A stretch of DNA of 64,000 bases. Source: Octopus sinensis (lineage: Eukaryota). The number at the start of each line of letters is the position of its first letter. The first letter of the stretch is position 1. The stretch covers positions 104,470,001 through 104,534,000 of the forward strand of contig NC_043003.1 of assembly GCF_006345805.1 (NCBI RefSeq), read 5' to 3'. The translations under genes and the position numbers were made by a program. The notes beneath the pieces were generated by a model that had not been told where the DNA came from, ran no database searches, and saw only the letters and a program-made list of their open reading frames with translations. Positions 4,946 to 42,499 of this stretch are shown piece after piece.

Positions 4946-5107
4946 TACTGTCAAAAACTGGATTTGAAACAACAGAAGGCAATGAAATGGAAAATTTATT
5001 GTCTTCTTTGCTATAGAGGTATGCCTGGAAATTAAGTCTCACAACATTCAGTGACATATTCTTGCCTTGCTTTCTGGCTGATTCTTCAGCATCATTGATT
5101 TCATTCT
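4946..5107 (-). CDS. NFKB1: NF-kB exon: end of RHD N-terminal subdomain
   Basis: ttttctag acceptor, gtaagt donor; [54 protein letters not shown] (cf. p50 EMDLSVVRLMF...EPVVSDAIYDS). Confidence 0.94.
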
Positions 5108-21417: not shown

Positions 21418-23352
21418 GTATATATATATATATAATATATATATATATGATATTGATACGAACGAAAAAAAATGAAGACGAGCAAAATAACATTATGTCC
21501 ACGGGCTGTTTGTGTGAGGGCCCATGGTGGCATCGTAGGCTTGCGTGCGGCATAAAAATATATACACACACACACACACACACAAATATACAACATGCTG
21601 GAATGTGTATGTCCACCTTGCAGGACTCCACTAACAGTGACCAACCCAGAAGCATTTAGCACTTACTGCAAGAGGACTAGGTTTGCAGTTCTCAGTGAAC
21701 CACAGGGGAGTGATCACTAATAGAACAAAGAGTAGGCTACATGCTGTACTGTCCAGACAAGCTAAGAACAACTGAAGACAGTCTGGAGTTGGCTTTACAA
21801 TAAAGAACACCATTTTCTCCAGGCATGAGAGTTTCCACATTGGTCATTCTCAGTACATCTATTTGGGGGCTTGTCAATGCCATGTACTTGTTTGACACTT
21901 GTCTAGATGAAATTCATGTGTTGATATATAACAGACAGTGAATAATACCTCTCTAGGTATTGCTGAAAATTTGCCAAGTTGTAAAAAACTCAGTGAACGC
22001 AACTGAAACAGCATTTAACTTTCTCTACAAGATGGCTATTATGCAAGCATCATCAGCATCTATGCTTCCACCCTTCAAGCTAATCCAGCTATAAAGTGAA
22101 TTGAGTTCTCTCAACCAAAAGACAACAGCAAAAGACAGAATCTTCCTTATGGGTGACTTTAACTCAAAGGTCAGCAGAAACCACACCATATGGCCAGGCA
22201 GACTCAGTCAACATGGCATTGGCAATTGCAACAACAATGAGTAAATGTTGAATGGATTCCGTGCAGAACATGGTTTCGTCATTACCAATATCCCGTTTTA
22301 GTAGAGAGCACAGTTCAAGACAACTTGGAGACACTTTTGGTTGAAACACTGGCCCCTGCTTCACTACATATTGGTGCAATAGATGGATATAAAGATCATG
22401 CTCAATGTCAGAGTCATGCCTAGTGCACACTGGTACACAGACCACAGGTTGGTTTGTGCACAAGTCAGACTGTTCATCAAATCTGTCAGGAAGAGAGGTC
22501 ATTTAACAAAGAAATTGCAGGTCAACAGACTTCTACAACTGCAGGAAGGGTTTCAGGGAAGGTGCCTCTGTGTGTATAGTCATTTGTGTATCATACTAAA
22601 TATATGTACACCACTGAAAGGTAAGTAGGCTGCTAAGGTGTTTGACTAAGAGAAAATCTCTTTATAGACATGTTAAAAACACAGTATATACCAGAGTAAA
22701 ATGAATATCATTGCAGCTGTACCTCACAAGAATAACAGACACATTTAGCCCTACTTGGGGGCTTGTCAATGCCATGTACCTGTTTGACACTTGGCTAGAT
22801 GAAATTCACGTGTTGATATATAACAGACAGGATCGTTACCAATGTCACTTCACTGGCACCTGTGCCGGTGGCATGTATAAAAGGATTCGAGCGAGGTCAT
22901 TGCCAGTACCACCTGACTGGCCCCTGTGCCAGAGGCACGTAAAAAACACCCACTACACTCTCGGGGTGGTTGGCGCTAAGAAGGGCATCCAGCTGTAGAA
23001 ACTCTGCCAGACCAATATCGGAGCCTGGTGCAGCCATCTGGTTCACCAGCCCTCAGTCAAAATCGTCCAACCCATGCTAGCATGGAAAGCAGACGTTAAA
23101 CGATGAGTGAATAATACCTCTCTAGGTATTTCTGAAAGTTTGTTAAGTTGTAAAATACTCAGTGAACGCAACTGAAACAGCATTAAATTAAAATTTACAT
23201 ATAAACTTACCTGATGCCTTTGTTATATCATTACTTTGAAGAAGACTAGTACTGTTCTCACTTGTTAGAGAACTGAAAATTTGTTTTACATGCTCATTAG
23301 TCAATTCTATAGACTCCTCAGAGTCACTTCTTGAAGATAAACAATCATCCAT
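4946..23352 (-). CDS. NFKB1: Class I NF-kB (p105/p100/Relish-like) transcription factor, N-terminal part; join(23352..23211,16801..16662,13298..13147,11848..11712,5107..4946); 3' part not found in the window
   Basis: Five GT-AG exons splice in frame (intron phases 1,0,2,1,1) to give MDDCLSS...[47 protein letters not shown]|[39 protein letters not shown]...|[13 protein letters not shown]...|...[14 protein letters not shown]...[11 protein letters not shown], a Rel homology DNA-binding domain with the p50/p52-type RFRYxCEGPSHG motif. Confidence 0.93.
6575..8803 (-). mobile_element. Decayed piggyBac (PGBD4-like) transposon
   Basis: Frameshifted transposase pieces [55 protein letters not shown] (7610-8174); degenerate TTAA-CCCT-like ends; boundaries approximate. 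Confidence 0.75.
8820..10250. mobile_element. Highly degenerate probable non-LTR retrotransposon remnant
   Basis: Strong strand-composition skew and interrupted reading frames; no clean motif recognised. Confidence 0.25.
10659..11054. mobile_element. Merlin-like (or hAT-like) MITE inserted in a SINE
   Basis: TIRs GGATCTTTTCGGTTTGAATGGCAGTTTTT / AAAAACTGCCGTTCAAACCGAAAAGATTC; perfect 8-bp TSD AAGGCAGC (10651-10658, 11055-11062). Confidence 0.85.
11712..11848 (-). CDS. NFKB1: NF-kB exon: RHD plus insert region
   Basis: ctctgcag acceptor, gtaatt donor; [26 protein letters not shown] (cf. p50 FANLGILHVTKKKV). Confidence 0.93.
13147..13298 (-). CDS. NFKB1: NF-kB exon: RHD
   Basis: ctgttttag acceptor, gtaagc donor; [42 protein letters not shown] (HAHxLVGKxC motif). 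Absent from the ORF track. Confidence 0.95.
13543..13975 (-). mobile_element. SINE/LINE-tail repeat with (GAT)n tail; related copies near 4690-4880, 16860-17276, 22830-23105, 28170-28430, 34635-34855, 55155-55300, 61632-61790
   Basis: Recurrent CATCATCAT...TTTAACGTCCGCTTTCCATGCTAGCATGGGTTGG...CAGCTGGATGCCCTTCCTAAC motif. Confidence 0.8.
14330..14557 (-). mobile_element. tRNA-derived SINE (GTCGACTTTGCCTTTCATCCTTTCGG core); degenerate copies at ~5140-5345, 10260-10460, 11225-11675, 54045-54280, 58615-58825, 62700-62885
   Basis: B-box-like GAGTTCAAATTC on the minus strand and a shared central domain across many copies. Confidence 0.75.
14590..16380 (+). mobile_element. RTE-clade LINE remnant (APE endonuclease plus start of RT), many stops
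   Basis: [63 protein letters not shown] motifs. Confidence 0.88.
16662..16801 (-). CDS. NFKB1: NF-kB exon: RHD recognition loop
   Basis: ttttgcag acceptor, gtaagt donor; [38 protein letters not shown]. Confidence 0.95.
18360..21075. repeat. ~2.7-kb degenerate (CA)n/(CATA)n tract
   Basis: Directly visible; interrupted by two GC-rich islands (18790-19010, 20490-20690). Confidence 0.95.
21250..21284 (+). ncRNA. Minimal type I hammerhead ribozyme-like motif (degenerate)
   Basis: GTTT-CCGACGA-A-GAGC-TCC-GCTC-GAA-ACGT-C-ATAC; U4 is replaced by C; palindromic ACGT stem III. Confidence 0.6.
21590..22560 (+). mobile_element. RTE-like LINE endonuclease remnant
   Basis: [46 protein letters not shown] motifs. 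Confidence 0.7.
23211..23352 (-). CDS. NFKB1: NF-kB first coding exon (exon spans 23398-23211; ATG at 23352)
   Basis: Acceptor tttttttag ends at 23399; in-frame TGA four codons upstream of the ATG; encodes [47 protein letters not shown]; donor CAG|gtaagt in phase 1 matches the next exon (G|AA = Glu). Confidence 0.8.
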
Positions 23353-23484
23353 ATTTAAATTTCACACAACGACGATTATCAGCTGAAGTTGGGAAAATCT
23401 AAAAAAACAAAAATATATACATATATAAAACAATAACATATAAGCATTTGGAAAAACAACTACAAAGTAATGAAAATAAACTAG

Positions 23485-23885
23485 TGGCTGTGTGGTAAGT
23501 AGCTTGCTAACCAACCACATGGTTCCGGGTTCAGTCCCACTGCGTGGCATCTTGGGCAAGTGTCTTCTGCTATAGCCCCGGGCCGACCAATGCCTTGTGA
23601 GTGGATTTGGTAAATGGAAACTGAAAGAAGCCTGTCGTATATATGTATATATATATATATGTATGTGTGTGTGTTTGTGTGTCTGTGTTTGTCCCCCTAG
23701 CATTGCTTGGCAACCGATGCTGGTGTGTTTACGTCCCCGTCACTTAGCGGTTCGGCAAAAGAGACCGATAGAATAAGTACTGGGCTTACAAAGACTAAGT
23801 CCCGGGGTCGATTTGCTCGACTAAAGGCAGTGCTCCAGCATGGCCTCAGTCAAATGACTGAAACAAGTAAAAGAGTAAAAGAGTA
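23485..23885 (+). mobile_element. tRNA-derived SINE with internal TA/TG microsatellite and (AAAAGAGT)n tail
   Basis: GGCTGTGTGGTAAG A-box and GGTTCAGTCCC B-box-like head; closely similar to the copies at 31950 and 38053. Confidence 0.85.
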
Positions 23886-23899
23886 TTCCTTGCGAGTTG

Positions 23900-25650
23900 C
23901 AAGTGAATTGCACATGCATGTGCATTATTCTATCCACTATTCCTGAGAGGAATGTGGAAGCTGAGTCCACAGGCATCTCCTCTGTAGGGTTCTATCAGAA
24001 GCAACTGTTAAATTTTCCAGCTGGATTCCCAAAGCACAACCAACTGAGACTATTCATATTAACCAATCATCTTGTAGGTCTCTTGACCATTGGATTGGCT
24101 AAAAGAATCAGTCTTGCAATTCTTTCTTGTGACTTTCTTAACACCTGTCCATAGTACTGGAGCCATGATCTCTCAATGTTGTCAAGTTGTGGCTTGACCC
24201 AGAGAGACTCCCTGATCTCCAAGTTAAGCATCCTGTCAAGTCGTGTTACTTCAGAGACCTTGAAGACCTCAGCTGCCTGTATTTGTGATCATACTTTTTC
24301 AGTTATTACCCAACATTCACGACCATAGGTGAGGATAGTCACAACAACTGAATTGAAGATAGCAAGTTTGGCCTTTTTACCAACCTCTCCTGAGGATCAA
24401 AAGCTGGAGCTGGTGTATTACTGTGCCAGCATCTGCCATTCTAGCATCCAGTTTAGCCTCCTTCTTGTTATGAAGTCAGCAGATGGTCAGCCAGAATAAT
24501 TTATTGGTCAATCTAAAGTCAGAGTCCAGCTTGACTTCAAAGTCCTCCTTCAGTTTAGCCTCAGACGTTTTTACAGTTTCTGCAACTTTTTGCAGCTCAG
24601 TGCACTGCCTGCACAAAACAGGAGGTTCATTTCCAAGCCAAGCCTAGTAAACCTCCTTCTCTGCATGAATGGTATATTTAACTTCCTGCTTAAACCAGGG
24701 GATTCTTTTGCTACCTGGTGCCAACCAAACCACATTCATCCACAGCACTTTACAGCCGAAAAAGAAACTGCTGAACAAAATCTCCATTCTGATTCGACAT
24801 CCTCAGTTTGTTCAGGAAGTTCTCTGAATTTGGATGCAATTGTTTCTGATTCCATCTACCAGGGGGCTTCCCACTTTATCCTGCACTGGGCTTACAAGTT
24901 TTGGGAGTTCTTTCTGTGGTACATAGTAGATAGTTGTTGGTTGCAGACAACCAGGTAGTGATCAGTTGATAGCTTTGCCACTTTCTTTATGTGTACATTC
25001 AGCACAGAGACAAAGAAATTGGAGACAATAACAAAATCTATCATTGACCTCTGTCCCAAAGTATCCCTATACCAGGCATACCTATGGATATCTCTGTACT
25101 AGGAGATTGTGTTCATAATGGAGAACCCATTTCCAGCGCAGAAGTCTGGTAAAGTCTCTCTATTTGCACCAAGGATCACCATTCCTACCAATCACTCCTT
25201 TCTACGTCTGGTGATTGGTGCCAACATGTACACTGAAGTCTCCTTGTCGGACAAATGACTTGGTCTTAACTATGTCTGCAGTGACCTTGTCAAGGGAAGA
25301 TTTGTATCTGACCTCACTGTTTGGTGCATATACTGGCAACAAACACAGTTCTTCCTTCAGCCTAAGGTTCAGAAGACAAACCTTCCCACCTAGTGGGATC
25401 CACTCCGTAACACAATCGAACAGCCAGGGACTTGTGAGTATCTCCATTCCCATCTGTACAGACATAGTTGGCACCACACCTGAATAGTGGAGTTTCTGCT
25501 CTCCATCCAAATCCTTGGTACCAGAGCCTCAGAACCTTGTACAGAAGACACCAACTATAGCTAGCCAGCAGTGTTTGGCCTCCTCCATTAGTTTCTGCTT
25601 TTCACCCATAAGGGTTGTGACATTTCAGTTCCCAATCCTTGATGGTAGTC
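23900..25650 (-). mobile_element. RTE/Expander-like LINE remnant with internal deletion
   Basis: WNVTTLMGEKQKL, YAPNSE, QRSMIDFVIVS, DHYLVVC and C-terminal ILTYGREC motifs on the minus strand. Confidence 0.75.
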
Positions 25651-25821
25651 CCCTCATGGACCCACTTCAGGGTCCCAAAACATGTATCCTTTGTACTTCC
25701 ACCCTGCACCTCTCAGAACAAGTTGCAAGCTTATTGCTAGTTTTACTGGCATTGGGTGGAGACAGCATTATATTTTTCAAACAGACCCCTCGATCTAAGA
25801 TCAGAATGCCTCCCTTGTTAA

Positions 25822-26021
25822 CCCTTTTGATTCCAACCTGCCTGAAACCGCCTCTTATTTTCAAAAGTTCTGAATTATATCTTCCACCAAACCTTAGTCA
25901 CAATTTATGTTCCTAACACTAGCTGAATGATAACTAAGTTATTTTACTAAATTCTTTGTTATATTTAAAATTAATTGAAAGAAACAAAGAGCATCTCATC
26001 AGAAATATGGTAACAAAAGGG
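25822..26021. mobile_element. piggyBac-type MITE, TTAA-flanked
   Basis: TTAA|CCCTTTTG...CAAAAGGG|TTAA. Confidence 0.8.
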
Positions 26022-27754
26022 TTAAATGTATTGTCTATTTATTAGATACATCCACAAGTTCAGTGGAGCAGAAATTGGTAGAAACTGAGTTCTGTTGGCA
26101 AATTTTATTTTCTAAATAACCCTGTGCTAACCTGAGAGGTTTGGGTTTTAATAAAAGGCCCAGAGTATTTGGAACTATTCTTGAGAAAAACCTGTAAAAA
26201 TTGAATCCAAATAAAGCCCATCAGAACTAGATCAATCCCACTTTACAAACTGCTGAAATTGCCATGGTTTCATAGCCAATAAAACTCACTTCCACTGTCA
26301 CTAAAACTACACATAAAATTCCATCTATATTTTATTTTACTTTTTCAGGCAAATAAACAGTGAACTAGGACTTAAAACACAAAATGTACAGGAATATTTA
26401 GCAGCAAGAGTTCCCATAAAAGGTAGTCCATAAAATGCTCAACTGATTCACTAGATATATAGGTCTAGGTCATTTTTGTTACATAATCATCATTTTAATG
26501 CCCCATTTTCCATATTTGTATGGGTCAGATGATATTTTTGTAAGGCCGACTTTTTACAACTGAATGCTCTACCTGTTCAGTCTGTAGCTATCATAAAAGT
26601 GCTCTCCCATGGGACTGAACCCAAAATTATGTGGTTGAGAAGTGAATCTCAAAACCACACAGCTATGCCTAGAAATGGTCAGCATGCACATAAGGAAAGG
26701 CTGAAAGAATTTTAGGGAGCTGTTATCTCTTTAATCAAACAAGAATTTCTCAGTATGAGACAAGTGGAACAAGTATGATAATGTATGGTAATAGGATATG
26801 GACATGAAATACAAAAGATCTGTAAAGGCTAGAGAAAGAAATTTGTTGAGTATGATTTGATATTAGTACAACATTAAGTTGCATGAAAAGCAGAGCACAA
26901 GTGTGCAACAAGTGCAACAGGATGTTAAAAATATAAATTAATGGAGAAGCTGATATGATGGACAACTGACACAAATGGAAGAAATGCTAAGATAAACTGT
27001 CATGCACAGACAGTGGAAGAAATCTATGCTTGAGAAAGACAAATAAAGACAAGAAATGGCATGATGATACCAGGCCTTAGGATGAGAGATCTCCCAGACT
27101 TCATAAAGGATCGAAGGTGACTACATACTGTATGCAGATTCACTCAACCCATGGTTGGAAAAAAATGGGCCACTAAAACTAATGATAATAATACTGATGA
27201 TGATGAAAATAACAGCAAGTTTCATACAGAAATTCAAAGTTATTGGTGGCATTTTACTCAAATTTTCGTGAAAATTAAAACCCGACTTTCTGAACTAAAT
27301 GGTTTTGCATATCTCATCCATCATAATCTGTCATACTAAAAAACTGACCTTGTTGTTTCTGAATCCACCTTCTCTGCATTTTTGCAAAATCCAACTATTA
27401 TGGTATTATCGAAAGTGCTTGGTCACATAACAAAATTCCATAAAAATTTACTGTGCCATTTAAACTACAGTTTCTCCCACCACCACCTCCAATAAATACC
27501 CATTAAATTTTTTTTAACATATTTGATTGGAAATTCACTAGCAGTATGAAAACTAAAACTTACAGAAAAATTGTCTGTTTGGAACCATCCTCATCATCAG
27601 CCTCTGATGTTAATTTTTCCATGCAAAGGTTTAAAATACTGTGCTTAAGATGTGCTGTAATTCTCCATGCAATGAAACTGAACCAGAAATCTCATGGTTG
27701 GAAAACAAACTTCTTAAACATTCAGTCATGCATGTACTTCATAATTTTGATTAA

Positions 27755-27976
27755 TCCTTTTGATACCAACCCACCTGAAACCGCCTCTGGTTCTGTAATA
27801 CAAATGTCTTGTTTTCAAAAGATCTGAATTGAAATCTTCCACCAAACCTTAGTCACAATTTATGTTCCTAACACTAGCTTAATGATGACTACGCTATTTT
27901 ACTAAATTCTTTGTTATATTTAAAATTAATTGAAAGAAACACAGAGCATCTCAACAGAAATATGGTAATGAAAGGG
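27755..27976. mobile_element. piggyBac-type MITE, same family
   Basis: TTAA flanks and a shared body CCACCAAACCTTAGTCACAATTTATGTTCC; partial copy at ~12840-13008. Confidence 0.8.
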
Positions 27977-28975
27977 TTAATGTTCTTGGTATTTTTGCAA
28001 TGTATATCATTTCGAATATGTATTTCCAGGACAGATTCAAATCTGCAATGCAACCACATTGTGATTTAATATCTACATCATTACTACACTTTATCATATA
28101 AAGTTTGGTTGTCCAGTTGTTTTGTGCATCTGAATTTACAGCTTATATAATTTTTGTATGCCTAACAACTTTATGCTGATGGGTTCAACAATTTGACTGA
28201 GGACTAGCGAACCAGATGGCCACACCAGACTCCAACCTTGATCTGGCAGAGTTTCTACAGCTGGATGCCCTTCCTAACTCTCGGAGTGGTTGGTATTAGG
28301 AAGGACATCCAAATGCCAGATCAAGATTGGAGCCTGGTACAGCCATCTGGTTCACCAGTCCTCAATCAAATCGTCCAACCCATGCCAGCATGGAAAGTGG
28401 ACGTTAAACAATGATGATGATGATGATGATGACTGTTTAGTTTCTTTTATTATGAGTATAATTTTAGCCAATCAGAAAATAGTTGTCTGTTGCTCTATAT
28501 TGTTCTTTTTTTTTTATTGTCTAGTTAATCAACAGAATATACAATTGTCCCTTTTCTCCCTCTCACTCTGTCATTTAAGCAATGATCAGGATTCTATCTG
28601 CTTCAACAGAATATCTATCAGTTTAAAATCATTATCGACATCTATCTTTACTTGCTATCAGTTATCTACTCGTAAATATTTTGTACGTACATGCATTTTC
28701 CATAACACTTTCTGCAACACATTCTATTGGCCTCGTAAGACATGGAAATACACAGCTGCTGACTGTTTCAGTCAGAGGACTGCAGCCATGCTGAAGAACC
28801 ACCTCGAATGGTTTTGTCAAACAAATCAACTCCGGTACTTTTATTTAAAGTGAGGTACTTGTTCTATCTGTCTCTTTTGCTGAACCATTAAGTTATGGGG
28901 GACATAAACAAACTGACAGCAGTTATCAAGTGGTAGGGAGGACAAACACACACTTTATACTTTATATATTTATAT

Positions 28976-29024
<49 letters not shown>

Positions 29025-29059
29025 TATATATGTATGTATGTATATATATATATATATAT

Positions 29060-30715
29060 AAAGTAGCAGACAAACGAAAGAAGGGCACTCAACACATTTA
29101 CTGAGAGTTACATGTGTGGATCAAGCAGTCCAATTCAAATTCCTTGGACAGGTTAGGAAGGACTTGGTAAAAATATTCAAAGAATTCAGCCTGTCCATAA
29201 CAGTTACCACCAACCTGACTGCGGCTGATTTGTTGGACATAACTTTAGGCCTGAACACAGGCAAGTACTACCCCTACAGGAAGCCTAATGAAGAAATGGT
29301 ATACATCCACAAAAGCTTACCCTCACCCCCATGGTTGAATTTAGAAACCTGGTTTCAGCCATTAGCAAACAGGTATCTAAACTCTCATCCACTGTTACAA
29401 TGATGCTTTGGCTAAGAATGGATTTTCTGAGAAGCTTACATACGTGGACATTCCCCAAACCCCCTCTCCACACCTAGAAGTTTCTACCAGCATAGCCAGG
29501 TGCTTCCTGTCATTAGATAAGAAACATTTCTCCAGAGACCATAAGTATTACAAACTCTTCAACCCCCATAATGTCAAGGTGAGCTATTCCTGCTTAGACA
29601 ACATTGCATCTAAGATCATATGCATCAGCAGATGTAAAAATGCACCCACAAAAACCCCAACCTGCAACTTCTGAAACCCCATTACCTGCCCTCTAGAAGG
29701 ATCCTGTCTGTTAAGAGCTGTAGTATACAGAGCCACCCTTACACCATCTGATGACATCACTAGGCACCATACAGATATGACAACCAATGACTTTAAAGGA
29801 AAGTACTCCCAGTACATGCACTCATTCATACCCAGGGATAGAGAGAACTCCACTTCCCTATTGTGCTTCCTCTGGAGACTCCAAGATATAAAACACCCAG
29901 CATCAAGTGGACTATTGTTCACAGAGCACCATCGTATTCACCTGGTACCCCTAATTGCCAGCTCTGCCACCGAAAAACTGCATATCCTCTACCAACCCAT
30001 CAACAAGAAATACAATCTATCCTATTGCTGTCACCAGAGGTGTGCCCTTGTGGTAAATTTCAAGCCATTGGCCAACAACCCAGATATACCTCTTTAGTAC
30101 CAGCTGCTCCCCTGCACAGCCTGCACCAAGGTCCTCATCACCAACTAACACCCATGAGCAGGACAGAAATCACCAACCTCCAACACTTCTACCTGCATAC
30201 TCTCACTCGTACATAACCACACGAGTTTATATATGTGCACACAAGTGTGCATTACCACACCATCTGCATACATGTTGATATATACACACTAGTGTGCATA
30301 CACATGCACATGTGTTCATGCATGTACACACTTACGTATGCGCAAGTGTGTGCACGAGTGGATACATGCATGTGTTCATGTATACGTGTATGTGCATACA
30401 TGTACGTGTGTGTGGGTGTGAATGTACATCTACGCACACACACACACTTGCATAAATACAGACACATACACATATATACTCGCATATCCACTGCCTCTTC
30501 CTACTTTCCCCACTAATCAGGCAACCAATTTCCTGTCCCCCACATCAAACTGTGACACTGCATGACCTTTCTCGACCAATCGCAAACTAACATCCAGTAA
30601 TAAACATTGACTTTCTCCTATCGACCTCTCATTCAAATTCCAATGGCTGAAGATTAGCATCAGGCTTGAAACTCAAAGTACCAATGAATTTGAATCAAAC
30701 TGTTTGATCCATATA
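29060..30715 (+). mobile_element. Decayed Penelope-like retroelement with inverted partial terminal repeat
   Basis: LLDITLGLNTGKYYPYRKPNEEMVYIHKS (RT), NVKVSYSC, CPLEGSCLLRAVVYRAT (endonuclease). 29113-29148 is an inverted copy of 30681-30712. Confidence 0.8.
30631..30695 (+). ncRNA. Type I hammerhead ribozyme-like motif
   Basis: ATTCAAATTCCAATGG-CTGAAGA-TTAGC-ATCAG-GCTT-GAAAC-TCAAA-GTA-CCAATGAATTTGAAT: intact core, long stem I. Confidence 0.65.
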
Positions 30716-31080
30716 TAATCATCATTTAACATCCATCTTCCATGGGCAGGATGGTTGACAGGAGCCAGCCAGATAGAAAAACTACTCTAGGCTACTGTGT
30801 CTGGTTTGGTAGGGTTTTTACAGTTGGATACCCTTCCTATCACCAACCACTCTGTAGAGTGAACTCAAGGCTTTTTATGTAGCACTAGCACAGGCGAGGT
30901 TAGTTTTGGCATGATTTTTGCAGCCGGATGCCATTCCAAATGCCAACCACTTTACAGTGTGGGCTAGATGTTTTATATGGCACCAGCACTTTCAGGGTCA
31001 CCAAGTAACTCACAAAACAAGGAATTAGGAGAGGGGCTGGGACATTTGAGGAGAGAAACTTGTGTCACAGGATGAAAGGT

Positions 31081-32689
31081 TATATCAAAAAGGTCCCAGA
31101 CTAGTTATGTTTAATTACAAAAATAAAATAACTTATTTACCTAAGTTTTAACATCTAAAGAGAAGAACCCCATTTTCAGTCCTGAATAACCATGGGATTG
31201 CACCTAGAACATTCCCCGCTCCTAGGCACAAGTCCAGGCAAGATTGTTTATGGAAGATCAGCAGTCACCTATGCATACCAGCCTCCTCCTCTCTTGATGC
31301 CATTGATGCTATCCAAGGATAAAGCAGAGGCCAATACAGCTTAGCATCAGTGACATCACAACTCATTGCTACAGCTGAGTGAAGTGGAGCAACGTGAAAT
31401 AAAGTGTCTTGCTCAAGAACACAACACGCAGCCCGGTCCGGGAATGGAACTCACTGCCTCATGATTGTTAGCCTGAGACTAACTACTGAACCATGTGCCT
31501 TCACTTTACCCTTTAAGTTGTAACATCATCTCCCTTGAAATGGTCCCAGCATTCCTACCACTTCTGGAATCTGACCTGGAAGTCATTTTCCGTAAGCAAG
31601 TCGCTCTTCATCTTGACAATCATGTTAAAACAGTGACCTTTGAGTAGCATTTTCATCTTGGGGAAAGAGATGGAAGTCTGCAGGTACTAAATCAAGTGAA
31701 TAGGGCAGGTGCGGAAGCAATACCATGTTGTCTTTGGCAAGAAACTCAAAAGAGAGGAGAGCTCAGTGATGGTGCACTGTCATCGTGAAGGATCCAATCC
31801 CTCACATTCTACAGATCCAGTCACTTCAACTAAATGTCATCCCTCAAATGCTTCCAAATGTTGCAGAACCCTCAATTGATGGTCTGGCCCTGGAGGATGA
31901 ATTCTCAATGCACAAATCCATGGGCACCAAAAAAAAAAACAAAGAAGACTGGCTGTGTGGTAAGTAGCTTGCTAATGAACCACATGGTTCCAGGTTCAGT
32001 CCCACTGCGTGGCATCTTGGGCAAGTGTCTTCTGCTATAGCCCCGGGCTGACCAATGCCTTGTGAGTGGATATGGTAGACAGAAACTGAAAGAAGCCTGT
32101 CGTATATATGTATATATAGATATGTATGTGTGTGTGTGTGTTTGTGTGTCTGTGTTTGTCCCCCTAGCATTGCTTGACAACCGATGCTGGTGTGTTTACG
32201 TCCCCGTCACTTAGCAGTTCAGCAAAAGAGTCCGATAGAATAAGTACTGGGCTTACAAATAATAAGTTCTGGGGTTGATTTGTTCGACTAAAGGCAGTGC
32301 TCCAGTATGGCCGCAGTCAAATGACTGAAACAAGTAAAAGAGTAAAAGAGAGTATGCTCTTGATTGAGTTACAACATTGTCATGCCTTTTGAAGTGCCCA
32401 TGACACTCAAAACATTGTGTATAACTCATTACCTCGTCGTTGTAAGCTTGCCAAAGTATGCTCAATGGCTGTAGCAGACTTCCCAAGTTTAACACAAAAT
32501 TTCACAGTTCCTGTCCATGGCAAAAATTGCAGGCTACAGCATACATGTGATCGCAAAAAGATAAATTTCACAACTTGCAAAGTAAACACAGCTGCCTCAT
32601 GAATGTCACTGCAAGCTCTCACAGCACATGCAACCATGTGCTGCTATTTGTCGGAATGTTCAGAACTCATCTGAAAACTTTTTTATACT

Positions 32690-32692
<3 letters not shown>
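31081..32692 (-). mobile_element. Decayed mariner-type transposon interrupted by SINEs
   Basis: Degenerate HPPYSPDLAP-like segment near 31670-31720; A/T-tract TIR-like ends; boundaries approximate. Confidence 0.45.
31950..32350 (+). mobile_element. tRNA-derived SINE, same family as 23485
   Basis: Closely similar sequence. Confidence 0.85.
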
Positions 32693-32720
<28 letters not shown>

Positions 32721-32769
32721 TGTGTGTGTGTGTGTGTGTAAGTATATATATATATATATATATATATAC

Positions 32770-33100
32770 GGTTATCAATTTGTGTTGCAAGATTCCTGAT
32801 GTGAAATTGTGTGTTGAAACCGATATTGTTGTATTTTGGGATGGTCATTCTTTTTTTTGCCAAATAAACACACTCACTATATATTTTTTTTAATTTGTTT
32901 ATTACTGTTCTTATTTTATTATTGTAACTCATGTCCAATGTCCAGAAATCACAAGAACACACATGAAAACGAAAAGTGTCACTGAAGAGGTCATAGATGT
33001 GTGCAAAAGATTTCCAGACATTGGACAGGAGTTAAAGTAATAAAATAAGAACAGGAATAAACGAATGAAGAAAAAATATATAGTGTGTGTTTTTATTTGA
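32770..33100 (+). mobile_element. Short inverted-repeat element (Penelope tail-like) with a degenerate hammerhead at 32977-33020
   Basis: Arms 32860-32930 and 33029-33100 are inverted; TGTCA-CTGAAGA-GGTCATA-GATG-TGTGC-AAAA...GACA; homologous to 39728-39935. Confidence 0.55.
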
Positions 33101-33124
33101 GGGGGGGGGGATAACTAACCAAAT

Positions 33125-33480
33125 TAATTGAAGGTGGTTATATTTCAGACCAAGTTTTCAACACAGATGAAACTGGTCTTTTTGGAAAAAGATGCCAAAC
33201 AGAACATATATAGCAAAATCAGAGAAAAGTGCCAGTGTTTTTAAGGCAGCTGAAGACCGTGTAACTTTTTTGTTATGTAGCAACACTTCAGGAGATTGTT
33301 AAAGCCGTTATTAATTAATAGATCAGTTAGTTTGCATGCAATGAAAGGTGTAGACTTAAGTAAATTACCAGTTCATTGGAGAGCCAATAAAAAATCATGG
33401 ATGACAGCAGAAATATTTACTGAATGGTTTAACAACTGCTTCATTCCCAAAGTAAGAAGATAAATGGAAGAGAAATGTGG
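33125..33480 (+). mobile_element. pogo/Tigger DDE transposase fragment
   Basis: NTDETGLFWKKMPNRTYI, DRVTFLLCSNTSGD, LPVHWRANKKSWMTAEIFTEWFNNCFIP. Confidence 0.85.
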
Positions 33481-35438
33481 ACAGGTGAATCAAAATTTTT
33501 TCTTCTTTGTTACATATGCAGGAGAAATAACTCTTGATATCATTTTGTCGAAGTATGAATCCATCTGAGAACATATTAAATTAAATTCTATTTGATCTTT
33601 GTCTGCGTGCAAGGTATGCATTGCCACTACGATGCCCTTTTTTCTCTTATGAACATTCTTATATAATTGATTATCCAGGTTTGAATAAACCTGCAATTGG
33701 TGAACCCAAAGTCAAAACAAAACAGCCATGCTTCTAAATTTAACAGCTATGAATCAGCCTACAATTGGTGAGCAGAAAACTTTCAAACCAAAAGTCATTT
33801 TGGTGTTAGAACGGTATCTTCATTCAGTAATATTTCTTACACGCTTCTACTGCTTTGGTTATAACAATTACAAAACTTTCAGGCTGTGTTCAAACATACT
33901 GCTGTCACTGCACCAATTTTAGTGAGATGATTAGCCATATATTCTTCAAAGACTATTCACAGTATGTGGTGGTAGGTTGTGTATGTAGACAATGATCACA
34001 CTAAAGCATAATTGAGTTTTCAAATATCTTATTAACCTGCATCATTATATTTACAAATGTACATCCAATAGATTGATAGAACAATATTCAAAAATAACAG
34101 GAATATTTTGTTTATAATTTGCAGTATAATATTATAAAAGTTGTGCAAGCAACTTCAATATAATTAATGTGTGTTACTTGACATTAAAAACTGGTGCCAA
34201 TTGTCAAGTAAGATATAAGCATGTTATATATAGAAAAAAAATTGTAACAGGAAGGGAGAACAACTTTTTCTCAACTATGCCTTTCTTCTCTCTCTCTCTT
34301 GTTCTTTACAATGCTCCCTATCCTCTTACCATTCCCTCTGTTATAGGACCTACATTAAGGACTTAGCTTTGCAAGGCAATCATCATTAGTCCTGGGAACA
34401 TGAAAAAACTGAGTACACTCTATAAAGTAGTTGGTATTGAGAAGGGTATCCAGCTACAGAAACCTTGCCAAAGAAGGTGTTGTTGGAGATATCCTTCAAT
34501 GTGGACTATGCCAAACTGTCCAGCCCTTGCCGGCATGCAAACCAGATGTTAAAGATGATGGTAACAACATACACAGACAGGAATATAGACACAATGAAAC
34601 TTAGTTATGCAGCTAAGTTATACAAACACAAACATCATCATCATTTAACGTCCGTTTTCCATGCTAGCATGGGTTGGACGGTTTGACCGGGGTCTGAAAG
34701 CCATGTAGGCTGCACCAGGCTCCAATCTCATCTGGCAGAGTTTCTACAGCTGGATGCCCTTCCTAATGCCAACAAACGGCTATGATCAGTCGGTGCTTTT
34801 ATGTGTCACCGGCGCTGGCATCTGCCACGTTCGGATGGTGCTTTTTACATGTCAACTTCTCTTTTCTATACTTGCATGAACTGGATGGAATTCATTAAGG
34901 CAGATTTTTTTTTCCTTCAGCAGAATACTTTCCCTGTTGCTAGCCCTCACCTGTTTCCAAGCAAGCTGTTTCAATGGTTGAATGGATTTTCAGGGAAGAC
35001 AGGAAACAGATGACATTGCTTCTATGATGGTGACTCATTCACAACTGTTGCACAATATCAAAACTAAGAGGCATACATTACATATTTGAAAGGTCATAAA
35101 ATGAATATTTTGAGGGAAATGTCTTTCACCTTTCCTCCTATTTTTAGTTATCCCCCCCCCCACTTAATTCTACAAAATATAAAATCCAAATTTTGAAAGA
35201 ATGCTTGCCATAATTACACTTTGTTGTTTGACAATTTTCCCTATCCCTACAGATGTTAGACATAAACAAAAATTGTTTAAAAATAAAAAATAAAAATAAG
35301 CATTTATTTTCCTCTCTTTTACAAAGCTACAGTTGTAAATTTTTTAGTAGGTATGTTTCTTTTGGTCATAGTTTAAATAAAACATTAAGCTTCTAGTAAC
35401 TAATTTTTAAATGTGTGACCTGCATTTGCAGTGATTAA

Positions 35439-35660
35439 CCCTTTTGATACTAGCCCGGCTGAAACCGCCTCTGGCTCTGTAGTACAAATGTCTTGCTTTC
35501 ATAAGTTTCGAATGAAAATCTTCCACCAAACCTTAGTCACAATTTATGTTCTTAACACTTGCTTAATGATAACTAAGTTATTTTACTAAATTCTTTGTTA
35601 TATATAAAATTAATTGAAAGAAACACAGAGCATCACAAAATAAATATGGTAACAAAAGGG
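35439..35660. mobile_element. piggyBac-type MITE, same family
   Basis: TTAA|CCCTTTTG...CAAAAGGG|TTAA. Confidence 0.85.
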
Positions 35661-37444
35661 TTAAATCATGAACAAGTTTTAAAATCTGTTTGCTTGTTTT
35701 TGTCAGACCCACCCGAACATGGTCATTTTTAATTGTACTTAATGCATAGAATTATCAGAATGAAAAATATACAAGAAAAAGTTAAATAAAACAAAATCTG
35801 GGGTCTTTATATATCAATGTATTCTCTTCATATCAAATTCAATATATAAAAAATATCACAGCATTCCCATTGAAAACATTGAGAAAAAGTTTATTTATTT
35901 CCTTCGCAGCAGAATAAGAGACAAATTTAAGATGGTTGTAAATGCTTGTAATTTGTCCAACACCATTGCAAACGAAAAAGAGGATTGAATGGATGCAAAT
36001 TTTTTGTGTTCTCAATGACATTTTGAAGCCCTAGGGGTACTACTGTGATATGTCTTTAGCATTTTTAGACTGAGTGCAACCAAAGCACATTTCTTTCAGA
36101 AGAAAGACTGAAAGAGAAGAATTGAGCTCAGTACAGGACCTTGGTGAGATTTGAACTCCAAACAATTACAGCAACACAATCTATTCAATGTTCTTGTGAC
36201 TCTGCCAACTGGCCACCTAATAGTTACGATTAGTATTATTGGTCAGAGCTTTTGCTGATAACAATTTGAAAAAGAACATTCCTGATTCCTAAAAAATGAG
36301 ATGGTCATGGTTGGAAAGCCACAGTTACATTGAAAATTCTTAGAGCATGCATATGACCCATATTTTCAAGTACAAAAATCAAAATGAAATCGATAAATAT
36401 TTGATTTGAAAATGTTGTACTTCAGACTGTGAAGACAAGAATATTTGAGAAAGTTAGCAATGCCATTGGTAGGATTTGAACTCAGAATGGAAAAGAATGT
36501 CTCTGAATAATTTGAATAAAATTTGTTCTTTTTTAAAGCAAACTTTCTATAAATATGAGATGATATAAAACTTTCGATAGAGACTTTATGAAAAACTTAG
36601 AAGTCCTGTTCTCCATTTGTTTTATACAAAACTTCATGGACCCCTGGCCATGCTGTTTCATATTATAACAGGTAAAACTGGAAATAAAAAGTTAATTAAA
36701 AAAAAAAAAAGCTTCATAAAAATTTTAATTTTACAAGATTATGACTTAATTTTGATATTTTTCATTTCAAACCATTACAAGAATAACAGAACATGGAACT
36801 GTTAGTCTTGCAATAGCAACAAGATATGTCGTCATCATTCCAGTAGTTAGTAGTGGTGTTAGTAATAGTAGTAGCAGCAGCAAATCCAGCAGCTGTTATT
36901 GCTGCTACTGCCAATGAAATGTCAAACAAATATTAACTGGAACAAACTTTACAGCAGAATCTTCGAGAATTTTCACATTCATTTAAGAGTAGATTTTTTT
37001 TTCCTTTTTTACCTCACTCTCTTAATATCTTCTAAGTATTATATCTTTAGAAAAAAAGGTCTTCTGGTTTTCATATTTCAAACAAGAAGCTCAGAATTTA
37101 CAAAAATAATTCATTTTTGAACTGGTTATAGTTTAGGGATTTATAGCTGCTGTTCTTTTTGAGGTGTGTCTGTTTATCAATATATATGAAAATACATTTT
37201 AGATATAAACGCATCCCATTTCTACTAGAAATATATTTATAAATATGTTTTGTATTTCTAATTGCATTTACATCCCTAATAAACTGAAAAGAATGTCTTC
37301 TTGACTATCAGAAAGTGAAAGTCAATACTAGATAATATTTTAATAATACAGCAACTGTTACCACACGAGATATCCATGTTGATTATTCATGTGATTAACA
37401 TATTAGTACATTTAGAAAGAAATGGATTAAGAGGGATTAATATA

Positions 37445-37578
37445 AAGATCTTCACCTGTTAACAAAAAAAAAAAAAAGAATATGACAAACACAAATTGCG
37501 TAAACGAACCTGGGGGGATGGGGACTTTCAGAAAATTCACGGATCCGATTTTTACCGTCATAACTTTAGGGAAAATGC

Positions 37579-37635
<57 letters not shown>

Positions 37636-38638
37636 TTTTTACGGAATCCCACGTTTTTGGTTATGGAGGATCCGATTCTAAAAAAAATTTTTTTAAATTG
37701 CATTTTCAAAATTTCAATACTCTCCCTCTTCATTTTTCAGCGGGATGGAGAGGGCGGGAAATTTGGGTCGGAATTTTTCATTAAAAAATCTGAAATAAAA
37801 ATTTGAATTTGTGTTTATTTTTTTTCATATTCTTAATCTCTGTATTTTCCCCACGGAGATTGATTGAAAAAAAAAATTCGAAAAAGTTTTAAAATTCGGA
37901 AAAAGTTATAAAAAAAGAGAAGAAAAAAAACTCTTTAATTTCACGTGAATTAATTTGTCGTATTACTGCGGGAAATTACTGAAAAATATTTTGAAAATTT
38001 TTTTCAGAATCAGATCCTCCATAACCAAAAATGTGGGATTCCTTAAAATATATGGCTGTGTGGTAAGTAGCTTGCTTACCAACCACATGTTTCCGGGTTT
38101 AGTCCCACTGCGTGGCACCTTGGGCAAGTGTCTTCTACTATAGCCTCAGGCCGACCAAAGCCTTGTGAGTGGATTTGGTAGACGGAAACTGAAAGAAGCC
38201 TGTCGTATATATGTATGTGTGTGTGTGTGTGTATATTTGTGTGTCTGTTTGTCCCCCCAACATTCCTTGATGTTGATGTAAACACACCAACCGATGCTGG
38301 TGTGTTTACGTCCCCGTAACTTAGCGGTTCGGCAAAAGAGACCCGATAGAATAAGTACTAGGCTTACAAAGAATAAGTCCTGGGGTCGATTTGCTCGACC
38401 AAAGGCGGTGCTCTAGCATGGCCACAGTCAAATGACTGAAACAAGTAAAAGAGTAAAGTATATCCATTTTCCCTAAAGTTATGACGGAAAAATCGGATCT
38501 TGTGGATTTCCCGAAAGTCCTCTCCCCACCCCCAGGTTTGTTTGCGCAAATTTTTTTATCATATTCGTTTTCTATACAGTTGATAACACCCAGCAAGTTG
38601 GGTTTTTTTTTTGTTTTTGTTAACGGGTGAAGATCTTT
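37445..38638. mobile_element. ~1.2-kb fold-back DNA element with a SINE inserted in its right arm
   Basis: Outer arms 37445-37578 / 38463-38638 and inner arms ~37643-37692 / ~37994-38042 are reverse complements. Confidence 0.8.
38053..38457 (+). mobile_element. tRNA-derived SINE, same family as 23485
   Basis: Closely similar sequence, retaining more CpGs. Confidence 0.85.
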
Positions 38639-39727
38639 GCGAAAATATATATTTAAAAACACCCATAAACGAAAAATGCTCTTTTAATTTAAATGCATTT
38701 CAAAAACGTTTTCTTCGATAATAAATGGACCCAGTAATGGAATTTTTCCAAAATCACCGAGTTCGGCTGGGGTTAATCACGATTGTAATGTTTTTTGCTG
38801 ATACAATTCGAAAAAAGAAATTTATTCCTTAAAGTCAAGATAGTCATGAGTGGATAGGCTACAGTTACATAAAAATTTCTTTGCGCAGATACATTTTTCC
38901 CCCCTTACGTGGAAATTACCAGAAATTTCTCGAAAGAAAAAGTGAAAACAAAAAGTTGCGCGAGGTTAAATTATACCCCCTCCTCTTGTTGCAAAATTGC
39001 AAATCATTATTGAAAACAAAGGAATCCAAAGAGATTATTGAAAATAAAAATAAAAGGATGAGGCGCGCCTGTCTAGACATTGCCGAATCGTGTGAATATT
39101 TCTGGAGAACAGTAAACCTCGGAGTGATTCGAACTCAGAACATAAGACCAAACTAAACCGACAATCTAATATTTCCTGCTACTTCACCGACCTTCGCCAC
39201 AATAATGAATTAGACCCAAGACTGAAAATAATAGCTTTTTGTTTTATTTTCACAAGACAATAACCAAACTCCAACTTGCTCCAATGGATTCTGTGTAAAG
39301 ATATCGAACAAACTGAAATCCAAATCGGATTGCGGATCTCAATTCAACAAAGTGCTTCGAAGGCTGTGAGAGCTTGAAAAGTATATTAAAGAGATAAGGT
39401 GCTGGAGTTACAAGGTTCTTTTAGTCACCATTTGTTTGTGTTGCTGGTTGCACCTCCATCAAGGAAGTCCTCAAACTGTGAATCTCCTGTCCTTTCACGT
39501 CGTGGGTTATCACTGACCAACGCCTCCACTTAAATTCATGTCAGCAATCTCTTATTTATTAATTTTCAATACAAATAAAATCTCCCTTCCAAACGTTCTT
39601 CAGATTTTATTAAATAAATCCGTGCTATGACTATATTTATCATCACAACCTCAGGGTTCCAATTATATATTTTTATATTATGACCGTTATTAAGGAGAGA
39701 CGCACAAATAAGAAAGAAGAAAGCAAA

Positions 39728-39772
39728 GGACCACTGATGCGGTCACAGGAGTGTGACGAAAGAACTCTGGCC
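39728..39772 (+). ncRNA. Minimal type I hammerhead ribozyme-like motif
   Basis: GGACCA-CTGATGC-G-GTCACA-GGAG-TGTGAC-GAAAG-AA-CTC-TGGCC; perfect 6-bp stem II; A9 is replaced by C. Confidence 0.65.
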
Positions 39773-40378
39773 GAAATAAGATTAAGATTAATGTAAAAAA
39801 TAAATAACGCTGAAGCAAATTAACACCAAATATATAGTGCGTGTGTTTTTATTGGCTAAACTGGCAAAATGACCATTCCGAAATACAACAACATCTGATT
39901 CAACACACGATTTCACATCAAGAATCTTGCAAAACAAATATATAAACGTAATATTTCGTTTTGGGATTTGGTTTGCAAGATTCTTTATACGAGTTCGTGT
40001 GTTGAAGCATATTCTCTTGTGTCTGGGGAGAATCATTTTCTTTTTGTGCCTTATTATTTAACTATTGAAAAGGTTGTAAGCCGCAAGGAAAATTTTAGGA
40101 CAATAAAAATAAGAAAAAAATGGAAATTTTACCGGTGAGTGTTAAATAATAAGGCCCAAAAATAACATGACTCTCCCCAGGCACAACAGAATAAACGTAA
40201 TATATTATTACCGTTATTATTTGAATACCTACTATACTACCTAATATACGAGTAGCTTTTTTCTAAGGGATGTTTATACTCTCACATACACATAGATATA
40301 TTTATTTATGGCGGGGCAAAATGAACTTCCTACATTTTACAGGTTGACAAACTTTCAACAGCAAATAGATAGTGTATA

Positions 40379-40503
40379 CAGTGTCCACAAAGTCTGGGTA
40401 CATGGGGTAAATAAAATCATAACATAAACAATTAAATATAAGAAATAATAATTTCTTAAAGTATGTGTTAATTCCCATGTACCCAGACTTTGTGGACACC
40501 CTG
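40379..40503. mobile_element. Tc1/mariner-type MITE
   Basis: TIRs GTGTCCACAAAGTCTGGGTACATGGG / CCCATGTACCCAGACTTTGTGGACAC, TA-flanked. Confidence 0.85.
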
Positions 40504-41232
40504 TATATCAGTATGAAGCATGAGGTAGCAGAAAAAAACCTGTATAACTTCACTAGTTCCACTTAAAGGCCATGTAAAAAAACAATAAGAGGTTTTCCTG
40601 CCGCACGTAAACATAGAAACAAGCTAACAGTCACCCAGTTTTCAAATGAATTATTATTTTCCATTAGTGACAAATACTAAGTTAGTTAATTACTGTTTTA
40701 GGTTATGCTTTGTTCACATAAAACACCACACCTAAGAATTCTTGAAACATTCGAATATTCCACAGGTGTTGTGTAAATAATTAATACCTTACTACTCAAC
40801 GAGGAACCTGTGATTACATATGCTAAATCTGACTTAATTACCAGTTTATATATTTTATAAATTTCAGAATTTTTGTAAACATTCGGGATTGTAGCGTATA
40901 GTTTGTAACGTTGGTCCTCCCGAGAGGTTTTTACGTGAAGACGAGGAAAGTAAATCGGAATAACATTTGGTACATTTTTGTTTAATATTATTTTTCCCCA
41001 GTTTTTTTTAAGTATGGTTTTAAGAATGTACTTTAAAAGTTCATGAGAGAAAAAGTACCAACGCAAATGTATTTGGGAGAGGTTTCCAAAAATTTGTTTA
41101 GAAAAGTAGAATCAACTTCCTCAAATGAAAGTGCTCGTATTCAAATAATTATAAATAAATTATATGCAATCAAAAATTATTAGATAATTAAAGATACGAC
41201 TCATGTTACAGTGAAAACGCTAAATATCTTAC

Positions 41233-41320
41233 CTTTAAAAAAAAAGTTACTAAAGTCATCCCATGTTTTTAAATGTATGAATACGAATTCTGAATAAAGT
41301 TTTTGAAGTTTTACACTTCC
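41233..41320 (-). other. Candidate non-coding first exon (5' UTR) of the NF-kB gene
   Basis: Minus-strand donor AAAG|gtaaga at 41232 in apparently non-repetitive sequence. The first coding exon has an acceptor upstream of its ATG, so a UTR exon is expected. The upper boundary is a guess. Confidence 0.5.
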
Positions 41321-41347
41321 TTTTATACTGCGTATAATTAGGGACGT

Positions 41348-41358
41348 GGGGAAATCCC
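41348..41358. promoter_or_regulatory. kB site GGGGAAATCCC
   Basis: Exact match to GGGRNWYYCC with an extra 5' G, just upstream of the candidate first exon; ETS-like CACTTCC at 41314-41320. Confidence 0.55.
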
Positions 41359-41919
41359 GGTGGCCAAATCGAGGTTACTTCACTTAGATGTTATAATAAT
41401 AAACCTGGAACAAAAATACTATAGAAACCAATGTATAAATATATAAAGCGGGGCAAAGATTGATTAAGTCATCTTTCTCACTTGACAGATTCTTTTTATC
41501 TGAAAAAGAAAAAGGAGCTGGGGTGGATTTGAACTCGGACACAGATGTAACCGAAATACCGCCGCTCTAACAACTCGGCCAATCGACTGCGTTATCGGTG
41601 CTCGGTTCACTTAACCTTGAATCTTTGTGGTTATCGTCACTGTCCACAATTTTGTTCCAATTATTTTCAAATTTGGTGTGTGGATTAAGTTTTGTATACT
41701 AATTATGAAAATGAAGTTAAATTTTCCTATAAATTCATCATTAAAAAGTTATTAGCCTTTAAAATTTGGGTATTTTAGCCAATCAGAAGCGAGTATTTTA
41801 TACATCACCGTGAAGTTTTGTTAGCATATTAAACGAAAGAGCACCGTGTTTTCCATAGCTGATTACGAAGAACGGTTTCTATAGTAACCAAAACTGCTGC
41901 ATGCGCACAAGGAGTGCAA

Positions 41920-42097
41920 GGTACTACTTGAGAACAGTGGTCCCGGTCGATCCTTACTTTGTGTAAAAAAATTATTTATTTTGTGTTTTATTTACTTTGC
42001 TAGGTTGTCGTTGTAGGATCGACTAGTCACGACTAGCTAGCGCGGATACGCGACTACACGAGTGCGCGCACCGAGACCACTGTTCTCAAGTAATACC
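41920..42097. mobile_element. MITE copy A (GGTACTACTTGAGAACAGTGGTCCCG TIRs)
   Basis: ~26-bp TIRs; body is the reverse complement of copy B. Confidence 0.8.
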
Positions 42098-42278
42098 GAG
42101 TACCTGGGCATTTTTAAAGCGTGGAAAGAAACGTCGGTGTGGGACACACCGTTCCATGGGTGACTCTTATCTTTGTGAATGTATGTGGAGAAGGAGATAC
42201 GAGAAAGAATTTATTTTATAAACTCCTAGAGTGTATTGCAAACGTTCGTTCTTGAATTTTTTAACTAATAAATGTCTG

Positions 42279-42478: not shown

Positions 42479-42499
42479 ATGCCGTGTCTGTACGTCGGG

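What the first reader, a model, noticed from the sequence alone, without database searches (positions are those of the whole stretch)
41228..41360. Perfect kB site at the candidate NF-kB promoter: predicted autoregulatory loop
Seen: a minus-strand donor at 41232, ETS-like CACTTCC at 41314-41320 and GGGGAAATCCC at 41348-41358, all within 130 bp of apparently unique sequence. Known: vertebrate NFKB1/NFKB2 promoters are NF-kB-inducible through kB sites. Inference: the same feedback operates in this invertebrate gene, with an ~17.8-kb first intron.
Basis: partly seen in the sequence, partly recalled or inferred. Interest (0 to 1): 0.7.

Follow-up and report, generated by a model that had tools for sequence, protein, structure and literature searches.

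The report
Octopus NF-kB promoter with kB site
The octopus NF-kB gene begins with a short non-coding exon spliced across a 17.8-kb intron, and a rare, perfect NF-kB-type binding motif lies just upstream of that exon's TATA-like box, so the gene is likely switched on by its own pathway as in vertebrates, though binding and induction are untested.

Summary
The window holds the 5' half of the Octopus sinensis NF-kB p105/p100-class gene. Contigs of 3 of 4 runs laid, from three studies, join 41233 to 23398; the fourth, DNA-like, runs on into the intron. The intron is 17,834 bp, GT-AG. Spliced contigs end at 41280, 41314 and 41337, short of the kB 11-mer (41348-41358). The 11-mer occurs 512 times and the consensus 88,844 times in 2.72 Gb, so a consensus site within 150 bp of a given start has p about 0.005. 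The IkB/cactus gene has a similar kB-like/TATA layout. Against: exact start unmapped, low-depth contigs cross the site, IL-17 control negative, deep conservation untestable, no binding or induction data. Feedback by Rel-containing dimers is likely (0.6) and is a known kind. Side finding: octopod NF-kB lacks the glycine-rich region and C-terminal degron, so the loop may be mainly inhibitory.

The parts
41348..41358 (+). 11-bp kB site GGGGAAATCCC (minus strand GGGATTTCCCC); half-sites GGGGA and GGGAT around a central A; matches GGGRNWYYCC on both strands
   Evidence: 512 exact copies in the genome; unchanged in near-identical contigs of X4, X17, X18
41320..41327 (-). TATA-like box TATAAAAG, 20 nt downstream of the 11-mer; would place a main start near 41291-41297 (inferred)
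   Evidence: function inferred
41314..41320 (-). GGAAGTG ETS-like core overlapping the last base of the TATA-like box; not distinguishable from chance
   Evidence: 15 copies in the window
41233..41337 (-). Non-coding upstream exon, likely exon 1; 5' end unmapped (spliced contigs stop at 41280 with adapter, 41314, 41337); holds uATGs at 41264 and 41259
41338..41578 (.). Low-depth (3-7), unstranded contigs across and upstream of the kB site: minor upstream starts, antisense RNA or DNA
   Evidence: X4 41259-41452, X6 41237-41551, X18 41348-41578; none in X1
23399..41232 (-). Intron of 17,834 bp, GT-AG
23211..23398 (-). Exon 2, with the start codon at 23352 (MDDCLSS...)
16662..16801 (-). First Rel-homology exon, [13 protein letters not shown] (NF-kB subclass, His present)
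4920..13298 (-). Three further RHD exons (about 13146-13298, 11707-11853, 4920-5108); dimerisation and ankyrin exons lie beyond the window start

Best explanation
41233-41360 is the spliced upstream exon and likely the core promoter of the octopus NF-kB p105/p100-class gene, and the kB 11-mer just upstream of its TATA-like box likely lets signal-activated Rel/NF-kB dimers raise the gene's own transcription. Steps: (shown) exon spliced to the ATG exon across 17.8 kb; (shown) site 11-78 nt upstream of the three spliced contig ends and 20 nt upstream of TATAAAAG; (shown) the genome search found two RHD genes, this one and one Rel-class gene, and an IkB/cactus gene; (inferred) after IkB degradation, a dimer containing Rel, which would supply the activation domain, binds the site and boosts initiation from the TATA promoter; (inferred) the new ankyrin-bearing precursor restocks the pathway and, while uncleaved, would hold dimers in the cytoplasm, giving delayed feedback in parallel with a kB-driven IkB gene.
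For: Junction in X1, X4, X18 (3 of 4 runs laid, three studies); loose end equals 23369-23398; record lengths 2965 and 1186 match those on exon 2; DNA-like X17 bridges the donor without a loose end. Deepest run X1 (depth 186) stops at 41337, short of the site. Site rarity: one consensus match per about 31 kb; P=0.005 within 150 bp. kB plus TATAAAAG pairs have a background of about 49 genome-wide at a control spacing. CpG o/e is about 0.5-1.8 from 37.5 to 50.5 kb and mostly under 0.5 in both gene bodies, as expected around a start. IkB/cactus gene (100% to P0076): GGTTTTTCCC 23 nt before TATAAAAG (21 nt in NF-kB, counted from the 10-mer) and a strict GGGAAATTCC 0.4 kb into intron 1. DNA-contact loop [13 protein letters not shown] matches p52/p50; the Rel gene has RFRYQCEGRSAGS. 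Papers (passages seen): nfkb2 has kB sites and needs p65 (PMC8286839); ChIP peak near the NFKB1 start (PMC4430024); snail NF-kB binds upstream of TLR-pathway genes, and GGGAAATCCC is a predicted snail site (PMC8995041); shrimp Dorsal drives Cactus (PMC6683665).
Against: No binding, reporter or induction data. Contigs cannot show a start; X18 and X1 extend 17-46 nt past the start predicted from the TATA-like box, and 3 of the 5 RNA-like runs laid (X4, X6, X18) have low-depth contigs across the site, so the start may be broad or further upstream. The runs are RNA only by guess. Only one strict site in 40200-42500; vertebrate promoters often have several (recalled). IL-17 control: 0 strict sites in 30 x 1.5 kb upstream of the domain (30 of 52 matches examined; expected 0.9-1.5; starts unknown). 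No kB-TATA excess once a retroelement family is removed (7 of the first 100 listed hits look non-repeat, about 37 of 530, against 49). No strict site near the IkB TATA; its proximal motif was picked by eye after the fact. Conservation seen only in contigs 98-100% identical, which is uninformative.
Confidence: 0.6

Rival explanations
1. The exon and promoter are real but the 11-mer is a chance match with no regulatory role.
For: 88,844 consensus matches in the genome; window count not above shuffles; single site; kB-TATA pairs arise by accident in this genome, as in the coding sequence of a retroelement family; IL-17 control negative.
Confidence: 0.2
2. The site is bound mainly by homodimers of the gene's own processed product, which lack an activation domain and would damp basal transcription (autorepression) rather than induce it.
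For: The 11-bp GGGRN-W-NYCCC geometry suits p50/p52-type dimers and the protein keeps the His of that subclass (the base-contact rule is recalled); p50/p52 homodimers are thought to repress (PMC8286839 passage).
Against: The same site matches the 10-bp heterodimer consensus on both strands; octopod NF-kB lacks p100/p105 processing signals and a canonical basic NLS, so homodimers may be scarce in the nucleus; cnidarian and protist RHDs activate reporters (passages).
Confidence: 0.12
3. The main start lies further upstream, so the site is inside the 5' exon, or it acts as an enhancer shared with the head-to-head TRAF6-like gene.
For: Low-depth contigs to 41452-41578; TRAF6-like coding exons begin at 54689 on the plus strand; one CpG-rich domain spans 37.5-50.5 kb.
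Against: The deepest spliced contig stops at 41337 without a loose end; upstream contigs have about a tenth of the depth in X4 and X6; DNA beyond 41620 is repeat; the TRAF6-like ATG is 13 kb away and its first exon is unmapped.
Confidence: 0.08

Closest known systems
Vertebrate NFKB2 (p100) and NFKB1 (p105) promoters under NF-kB control
   Same: NF-kB-subclass gene (RHD plus ankyrin repeats) with a start-proximal kB site. nfkb2 kB sites, p65 dependence and late negative feedback by p100: passages of PMC8286839; ChIP peak near the NFKB1 start: passage of PMC4430024.
   Different: AT-rich TATA-type promoter with one strict site, against GC-rich human promoters (52-56% GC); one NF-kB-class and one Rel-class gene found; protein lacks the glycine-rich region and C-terminal degron; function untested; common descent of the site cannot be shown.
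Biomphalaria glabrata kB sites upstream of TLR-pathway genes (Humphries and Deneckere 2018)
   Same: Mollusc; NF-kB binds upstream of genes of its own pathway; GGGAAATCCC is among predicted snail sites (review passages, PMC8995041).
   Different: The primary paper is not held, so whether the snail NF-kB gene itself was tested is unknown to me; the review's table counts positions from the ATG, which would miss a promoter 17.8 kb away.
Shrimp Dorsal-to-Cactus feedback (Litopenaeus vannamei)
   Same: Invertebrate kB-driven feedback; parallels the kB-like motifs at octopus IkB (review passage, PMC6683665).
   Different: The target is IkB, not the NF-kB gene.
Drosophila Relish
   Same: RHD plus ankyrin protein without a glycine-rich region or C-terminal IKK sites (passage, PMC5700166), like the octopod protein.
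   Different: Relish is caspase-cleaved (abstract start, PMC434151); octopod cleavage is untested. I found no passage on kB sites in the Relish promoter.

Membership tests
NF-kB subclass (p105/p100/Relish) gene | N-terminal RHD closer to p50/p52 than to Rel proteins | tested here: met
   E 3e-17 to p52, 2e-15 to p50, 2e-9 or weaker to c-Rel/p65/RelB; PF00554 and PF16179 above cut-off
NF-kB subclass (p105/p100/Relish) gene | C-terminal ankyrin repeats in the same protein | tested here: met
   Ankyrin exons in L006 and L007; Pfam finds 3 stretches in P0166, fewer than the six reported for a nemertean orthologue
p100/p105-type proteasomally processed precursor | Glycine-rich region after the RHD | tested here: not met
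   At most 2-3 Gly per 30 aa in 4 of 4 octopod proteins, 7-19 in 7 of 7 other mollusc and fish proteins examined (11 proteins chosen)
p100/p105-type proteasomally processed precursor | C-terminal DSGxxS-type IKK degron | tested here: not met
   0 of 4 octopod proteins, 6 of 7 others (absent in chiton P0006); rests on predicted protein ends
NF-kB-autoregulated NF-kB gene promoter | Consensus kB site near the transcription start | tested here: met
   11-78 nt upstream of three spliced contig ends; exact start not mapped
NF-kB-autoregulated NF-kB gene promoter | Site bound by Rel/NF-kB dimers | not testable with these tools
   needs EMSA, ChIP or CUT&Tag
NF-kB-autoregulated NF-kB gene promoter | Induction depends on the site and on Rel/NF-kB | not testable with these tools
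   contig depths cannot rank expression; no induction data for this gene in the passages seen
NF-kB-autoregulated NF-kB gene promoter | Site conserved across related species | tested here: inconclusive
   Unchanged in X4, X17 (organism B), X18 (organism C), but these are 98-100% identical; no distant cephalopod genome held
ETS-family binding site | GGAA core in a context above chance and apart from the TATA footprint | tested here: inconclusive
   15 copies in 64 kb; overlaps TATAAAAG

The most novel reading that the evidence does not exclude
Octopods have rewired the ancient loop: their single NF-kB-class gene lost the glycine-rich region, the C-terminal IKK degron and the canonical basic NLS that other molluscs keep, so the kB site makes it a Rel-induced, non-processed inhibitor (an IkB-delta-only p100), or else a caspase-cut Relish-like factor evolved independently of insects, further gated by two overlapping upstream ORFs in the leader.
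Probability: 0.25. Interest if true: 0.6.

Novelty: new member of a known kind. Interest (0 to 1): 0.36.

Why it matters
NF-kB control of its own genes is established in vertebrates, and feedback onto IkB is shown in shrimp. A mapped cephalopod promoter with one clean site gives a simple test of whether this loop also runs in lophotrochozoans, and a ready kB reporter element for octopus immunology, where none of my 10 paper searches surfaced a functional kB site. Scans upstream of the ATG would miss this promoter by 17.8 kb. The stripped-down octopod precursor raises a separate, testable question about how cephalopod NF-kB is activated at all.

Tried and rejected
No RNA holder was listed on record as RNA; runs were judged by their spliced contigs. 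Laying runs on the whole intron was swamped by repeats (15 of 388 joints shown, none at the junction); X6 and X11 carry only 11-12 letters beyond exon 2, too few to place, so other upstream exons are not excluded. Idea that the CCAAT, X-box and NRF1-like motifs at 41770-41910 (names recalled) form the promoter: rejected, the stretch is a dispersed repeat. Idea that the kB-TATA module came from a mobile element: rejected; 27 of 30 loci fetched share a roughly 1-kb element whose match is coding sequence (WDFPVQTDRTIKANKP), and the promoter aligns to them only through a 38-nt AT-rich stretch away from the site. Genome-wide kB-TATA enrichment: none after that family. IL-17 promoters as positive control: negative. 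Rel gene: 2 loose matches in 60 kb upstream of its RHD exon, start unknown, uninformative. PDB search to name IkB was uninformative; one search named it. Papers not held: PMID 29746981 and three ids recalled from memory, so the original NFKB1 promoter, horseshoe-crab and binding-specificity papers are recalled only. Passages searched without finding NF-kB gene autoregulation in invertebrates or protists: PMC8677719, 10.1101/691097, PMC12485861, PMC12922788, PMC9496462, PMC5700166, PMC13042239, 10.1101/640177. No supplements were read. No structure or complex prediction was run.

Full report
Setting. The window is G000:C7:104470001-104534000 of a 2.72-Gb genome. A minus-strand exon at 16662-16801 encodes a Rel-homology segment that matches human p52 (E 3e-17) and p50 (2e-15) far better than c-Rel, p65 or RelB (2e-9 or weaker). 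Its best protein hit is 'NF-kappa-B p105 subunit [Octopus sinensis]' on a contig of the same length as C7. Pfam confirms RHD, dimerisation and ankyrin exons, the last two beyond the window start. A search with this exon found 2 RHD loci in the genome: this gene and a Rel-class gene on C11 with RFRYQCEGRSAGS.

Observation. The donor (first intron base 41232), CACTTCC (41314-41320) and GGGGAAATCCC (41348-41358) are all present. 41150-41520 matched once in the genome and is bounded by repeats. Across the window, kB consensus matches are not enriched (6 against 5.38), and CACTTCC occurs 15 times.

The exon is real. Twenty runs from nine studies hold exon 2; none is on record as RNA. Laid on 40700-41515, contigs of X1, X4 and X18 (3 of 4 runs, three studies) start at 41233 with a loose end identical to 23369-23398. 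The X4 and X18 records have the same lengths (2965, 1186) and adjoining coordinates as those on exon 2. The fourth run, X17, is DNA-like and bridges the donor into the intron. The intron is 17,834 bp, GT-AG. X6 and X11 had too few letters beyond exon 2 to place.

The start is bracketed, not mapped. Spliced contigs end at 41280 (adapter), 41314 and 41337, the last in the deepest run. The TATA-like box would put the start near 41291-41297 (inference), so two contigs pass it. Low-depth unstranded contigs cross the site in X4, X6 and X18 (to 41452, 41551, 41578), none in X1. The simplest reading is a main start at 41290-41340 with minor upstream or antisense RNA. A CpG-rich domain from 37.5 to 50.5 kb between two CpG-poor gene bodies fits a promoter region.

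Is the site more than chance? The genome has 512 exact 11-mers and 88,844 GGGRNWYYCC matches, giving P=3e-5 (post hoc) and 0.005 for one within 150 bp of a given start. The 11-mer is unchanged in X4, X17 and X18, but these differ from the window at 0-4 places in about 200-330, which says nothing on conservation.

Controls in the same genome were mixed. The IkB/cactus gene on C11 (100% to P0076) has TATAAAAG 233 nt before its ATG, GGTTTTTCCC 23 nt before that (21 nt in NF-kB), and a strict GGGAAATTCC in intron 1, 1 of 2 matches in 40 kb; the proximal motif is looser and was picked by eye. IL-17 genes showed 0 strict sites in 30 x 1.5 kb (30 of 52 matches; 0.9-1.5 expected; starts unknown). kB plus TATAAAAG at 14-30 nt gave 530 hits against 49 at 114-130 nt, but 27 of 30 fetched hits are one repeat family whose match is coding sequence of a non-LTR-type element (the element class is my recall from the motif). 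About 7 in 100 listed hits are non-repeat, so there is no excess. The NF-kB promoter is not a copy of that element.

Mechanism. Most likely (0.6), signal-activated dimers containing Rel bind the site and raise initiation at the adjacent TATA promoter, restocking the precursor; the uncleaved precursor would also hold dimers in the cytoplasm. Gene structure, site position and the cast of genes are shown; binding, induction and sign are inferred. Rivals: chance motif (0.2), repression by homodimers (0.12), upstream start or enhancer shared with the head-to-head TRAF6-like gene whose coding starts at 54689 (0.08).

A twist bears on the sign. Four of 4 octopod proteins have at most 2-3 Gly per 30 residues after the RHD and no C-terminal DSGxxS; 7 of 7 other mollusc and fish proteins examined have 7-19 Gly and 6 of 7 have the degron; the basic cluster after the RHD is reduced to IKRSK or FKKIK (11 proteins chosen by me). 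So p100/p105-style processing signals are not met, as in Relish (PMC5700166 passage). The induced product may be mainly an inhibitor, or be cut by a caspase in its acidic linker; both are untested.

Known context. Passages seen: nfkb2 carries kB sites, needs p65 and gives late negative feedback (PMC8286839); ChIP signal near the NFKB1 start (PMC4430024); snail NF-kB binds upstream of TLR-pathway genes (PMC8995041); shrimp Dorsal drives Cactus (PMC6683665); cnidarian and protist NF-kB is regulated at mRNA level (PMC8677719); octopus and squid transcriptomes list the pathway, with no promoter work in the passages seen (PMC4199593; PMC3349304). Ten searches surfaced no paper on a cephalopod NF-kB promoter; the library lacks most subscription journals, and reports of kB sites at arthropod Relish or NF-kB genes are recalled only. 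The scan's own notes held nothing on this place or idea.

Verdict. Observation confirmed, gene model confirmed, regulatory loop likely but unproven, and of a known kind. Interest 0.36; the rewired-precursor reading has probability 0.25 and would deserve 0.6.

Noticed in passing
P0166, P0002-P0004 (gene continues to G000:C7:104406344): Octopod NF-kB (738-799 aa) lacks the glycine-rich region, C-terminal degron and canonical basic NLS seen in most other mollusc and fish orthologues examined; Pfam finds 3 ankyrin stretches, and a weak Death hit only in Argonauta. The acidic linker has DETE or DETD, a caspase-like site (recalled).
   Followed up: partly
window 41264-41256 and 41259 through the junction to about 23346: Two overlapping upstream ORFs in the leader: Met-Gly-stop in a strong start context, and a 26-codon ORF that crosses the junction and ends just past the main ATG, out of frame. 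Possible translational control.
   Followed up: partly
window 54689-63808, plus strand: TRAF6-like gene (P0162, 450 aa) head-to-head with NF-kB; first coding exon begins right after an acceptor AG, so an unmapped upstream exon is likely; a consensus GGGGATCTCC lies at 49665.
   Followed up: partly
L015:3300-3650 and 2595-2604 (G000:C11, about 70.405 Mb): IkB/cactus promoter: GGTTTTTCCC, TATATAAAAG and an initiator-like TCATT 30 nt after the TATA; strict kB site in intron 1.
   Followed up: partly
L067-L096: Repeat family of roughly 490 copies (estimate from 93 of the first 100 listed hits) whose coding sequence spells a kB-like site plus TATAAAAG; a trap for motif scans, and possibly a source of latent promoters.
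   Followed up: partly
window 40010-40193, 40381-40499, 41920-42097, 42279-42478, 41620-41920, 41519-41600: Several short inverted-repeat (MITE-like) elements, a dispersed 300-bp repeat and a tRNA-like short element flank the unique promoter.
   Followed up: no
window 49884 (minus strand): Another AG|GTAAG donor inside the CpG-rich domain; could mark an alternative upstream exon; no RNA laid there.
   Followed up: no
G000:C11:70.40 Mb and 71.67 Mb: The IkB and Rel genes lie 1.3 Mb apart on one chromosome; IL-17 domains form two large clusters on C1, 52 matches in all.
   Followed up: no
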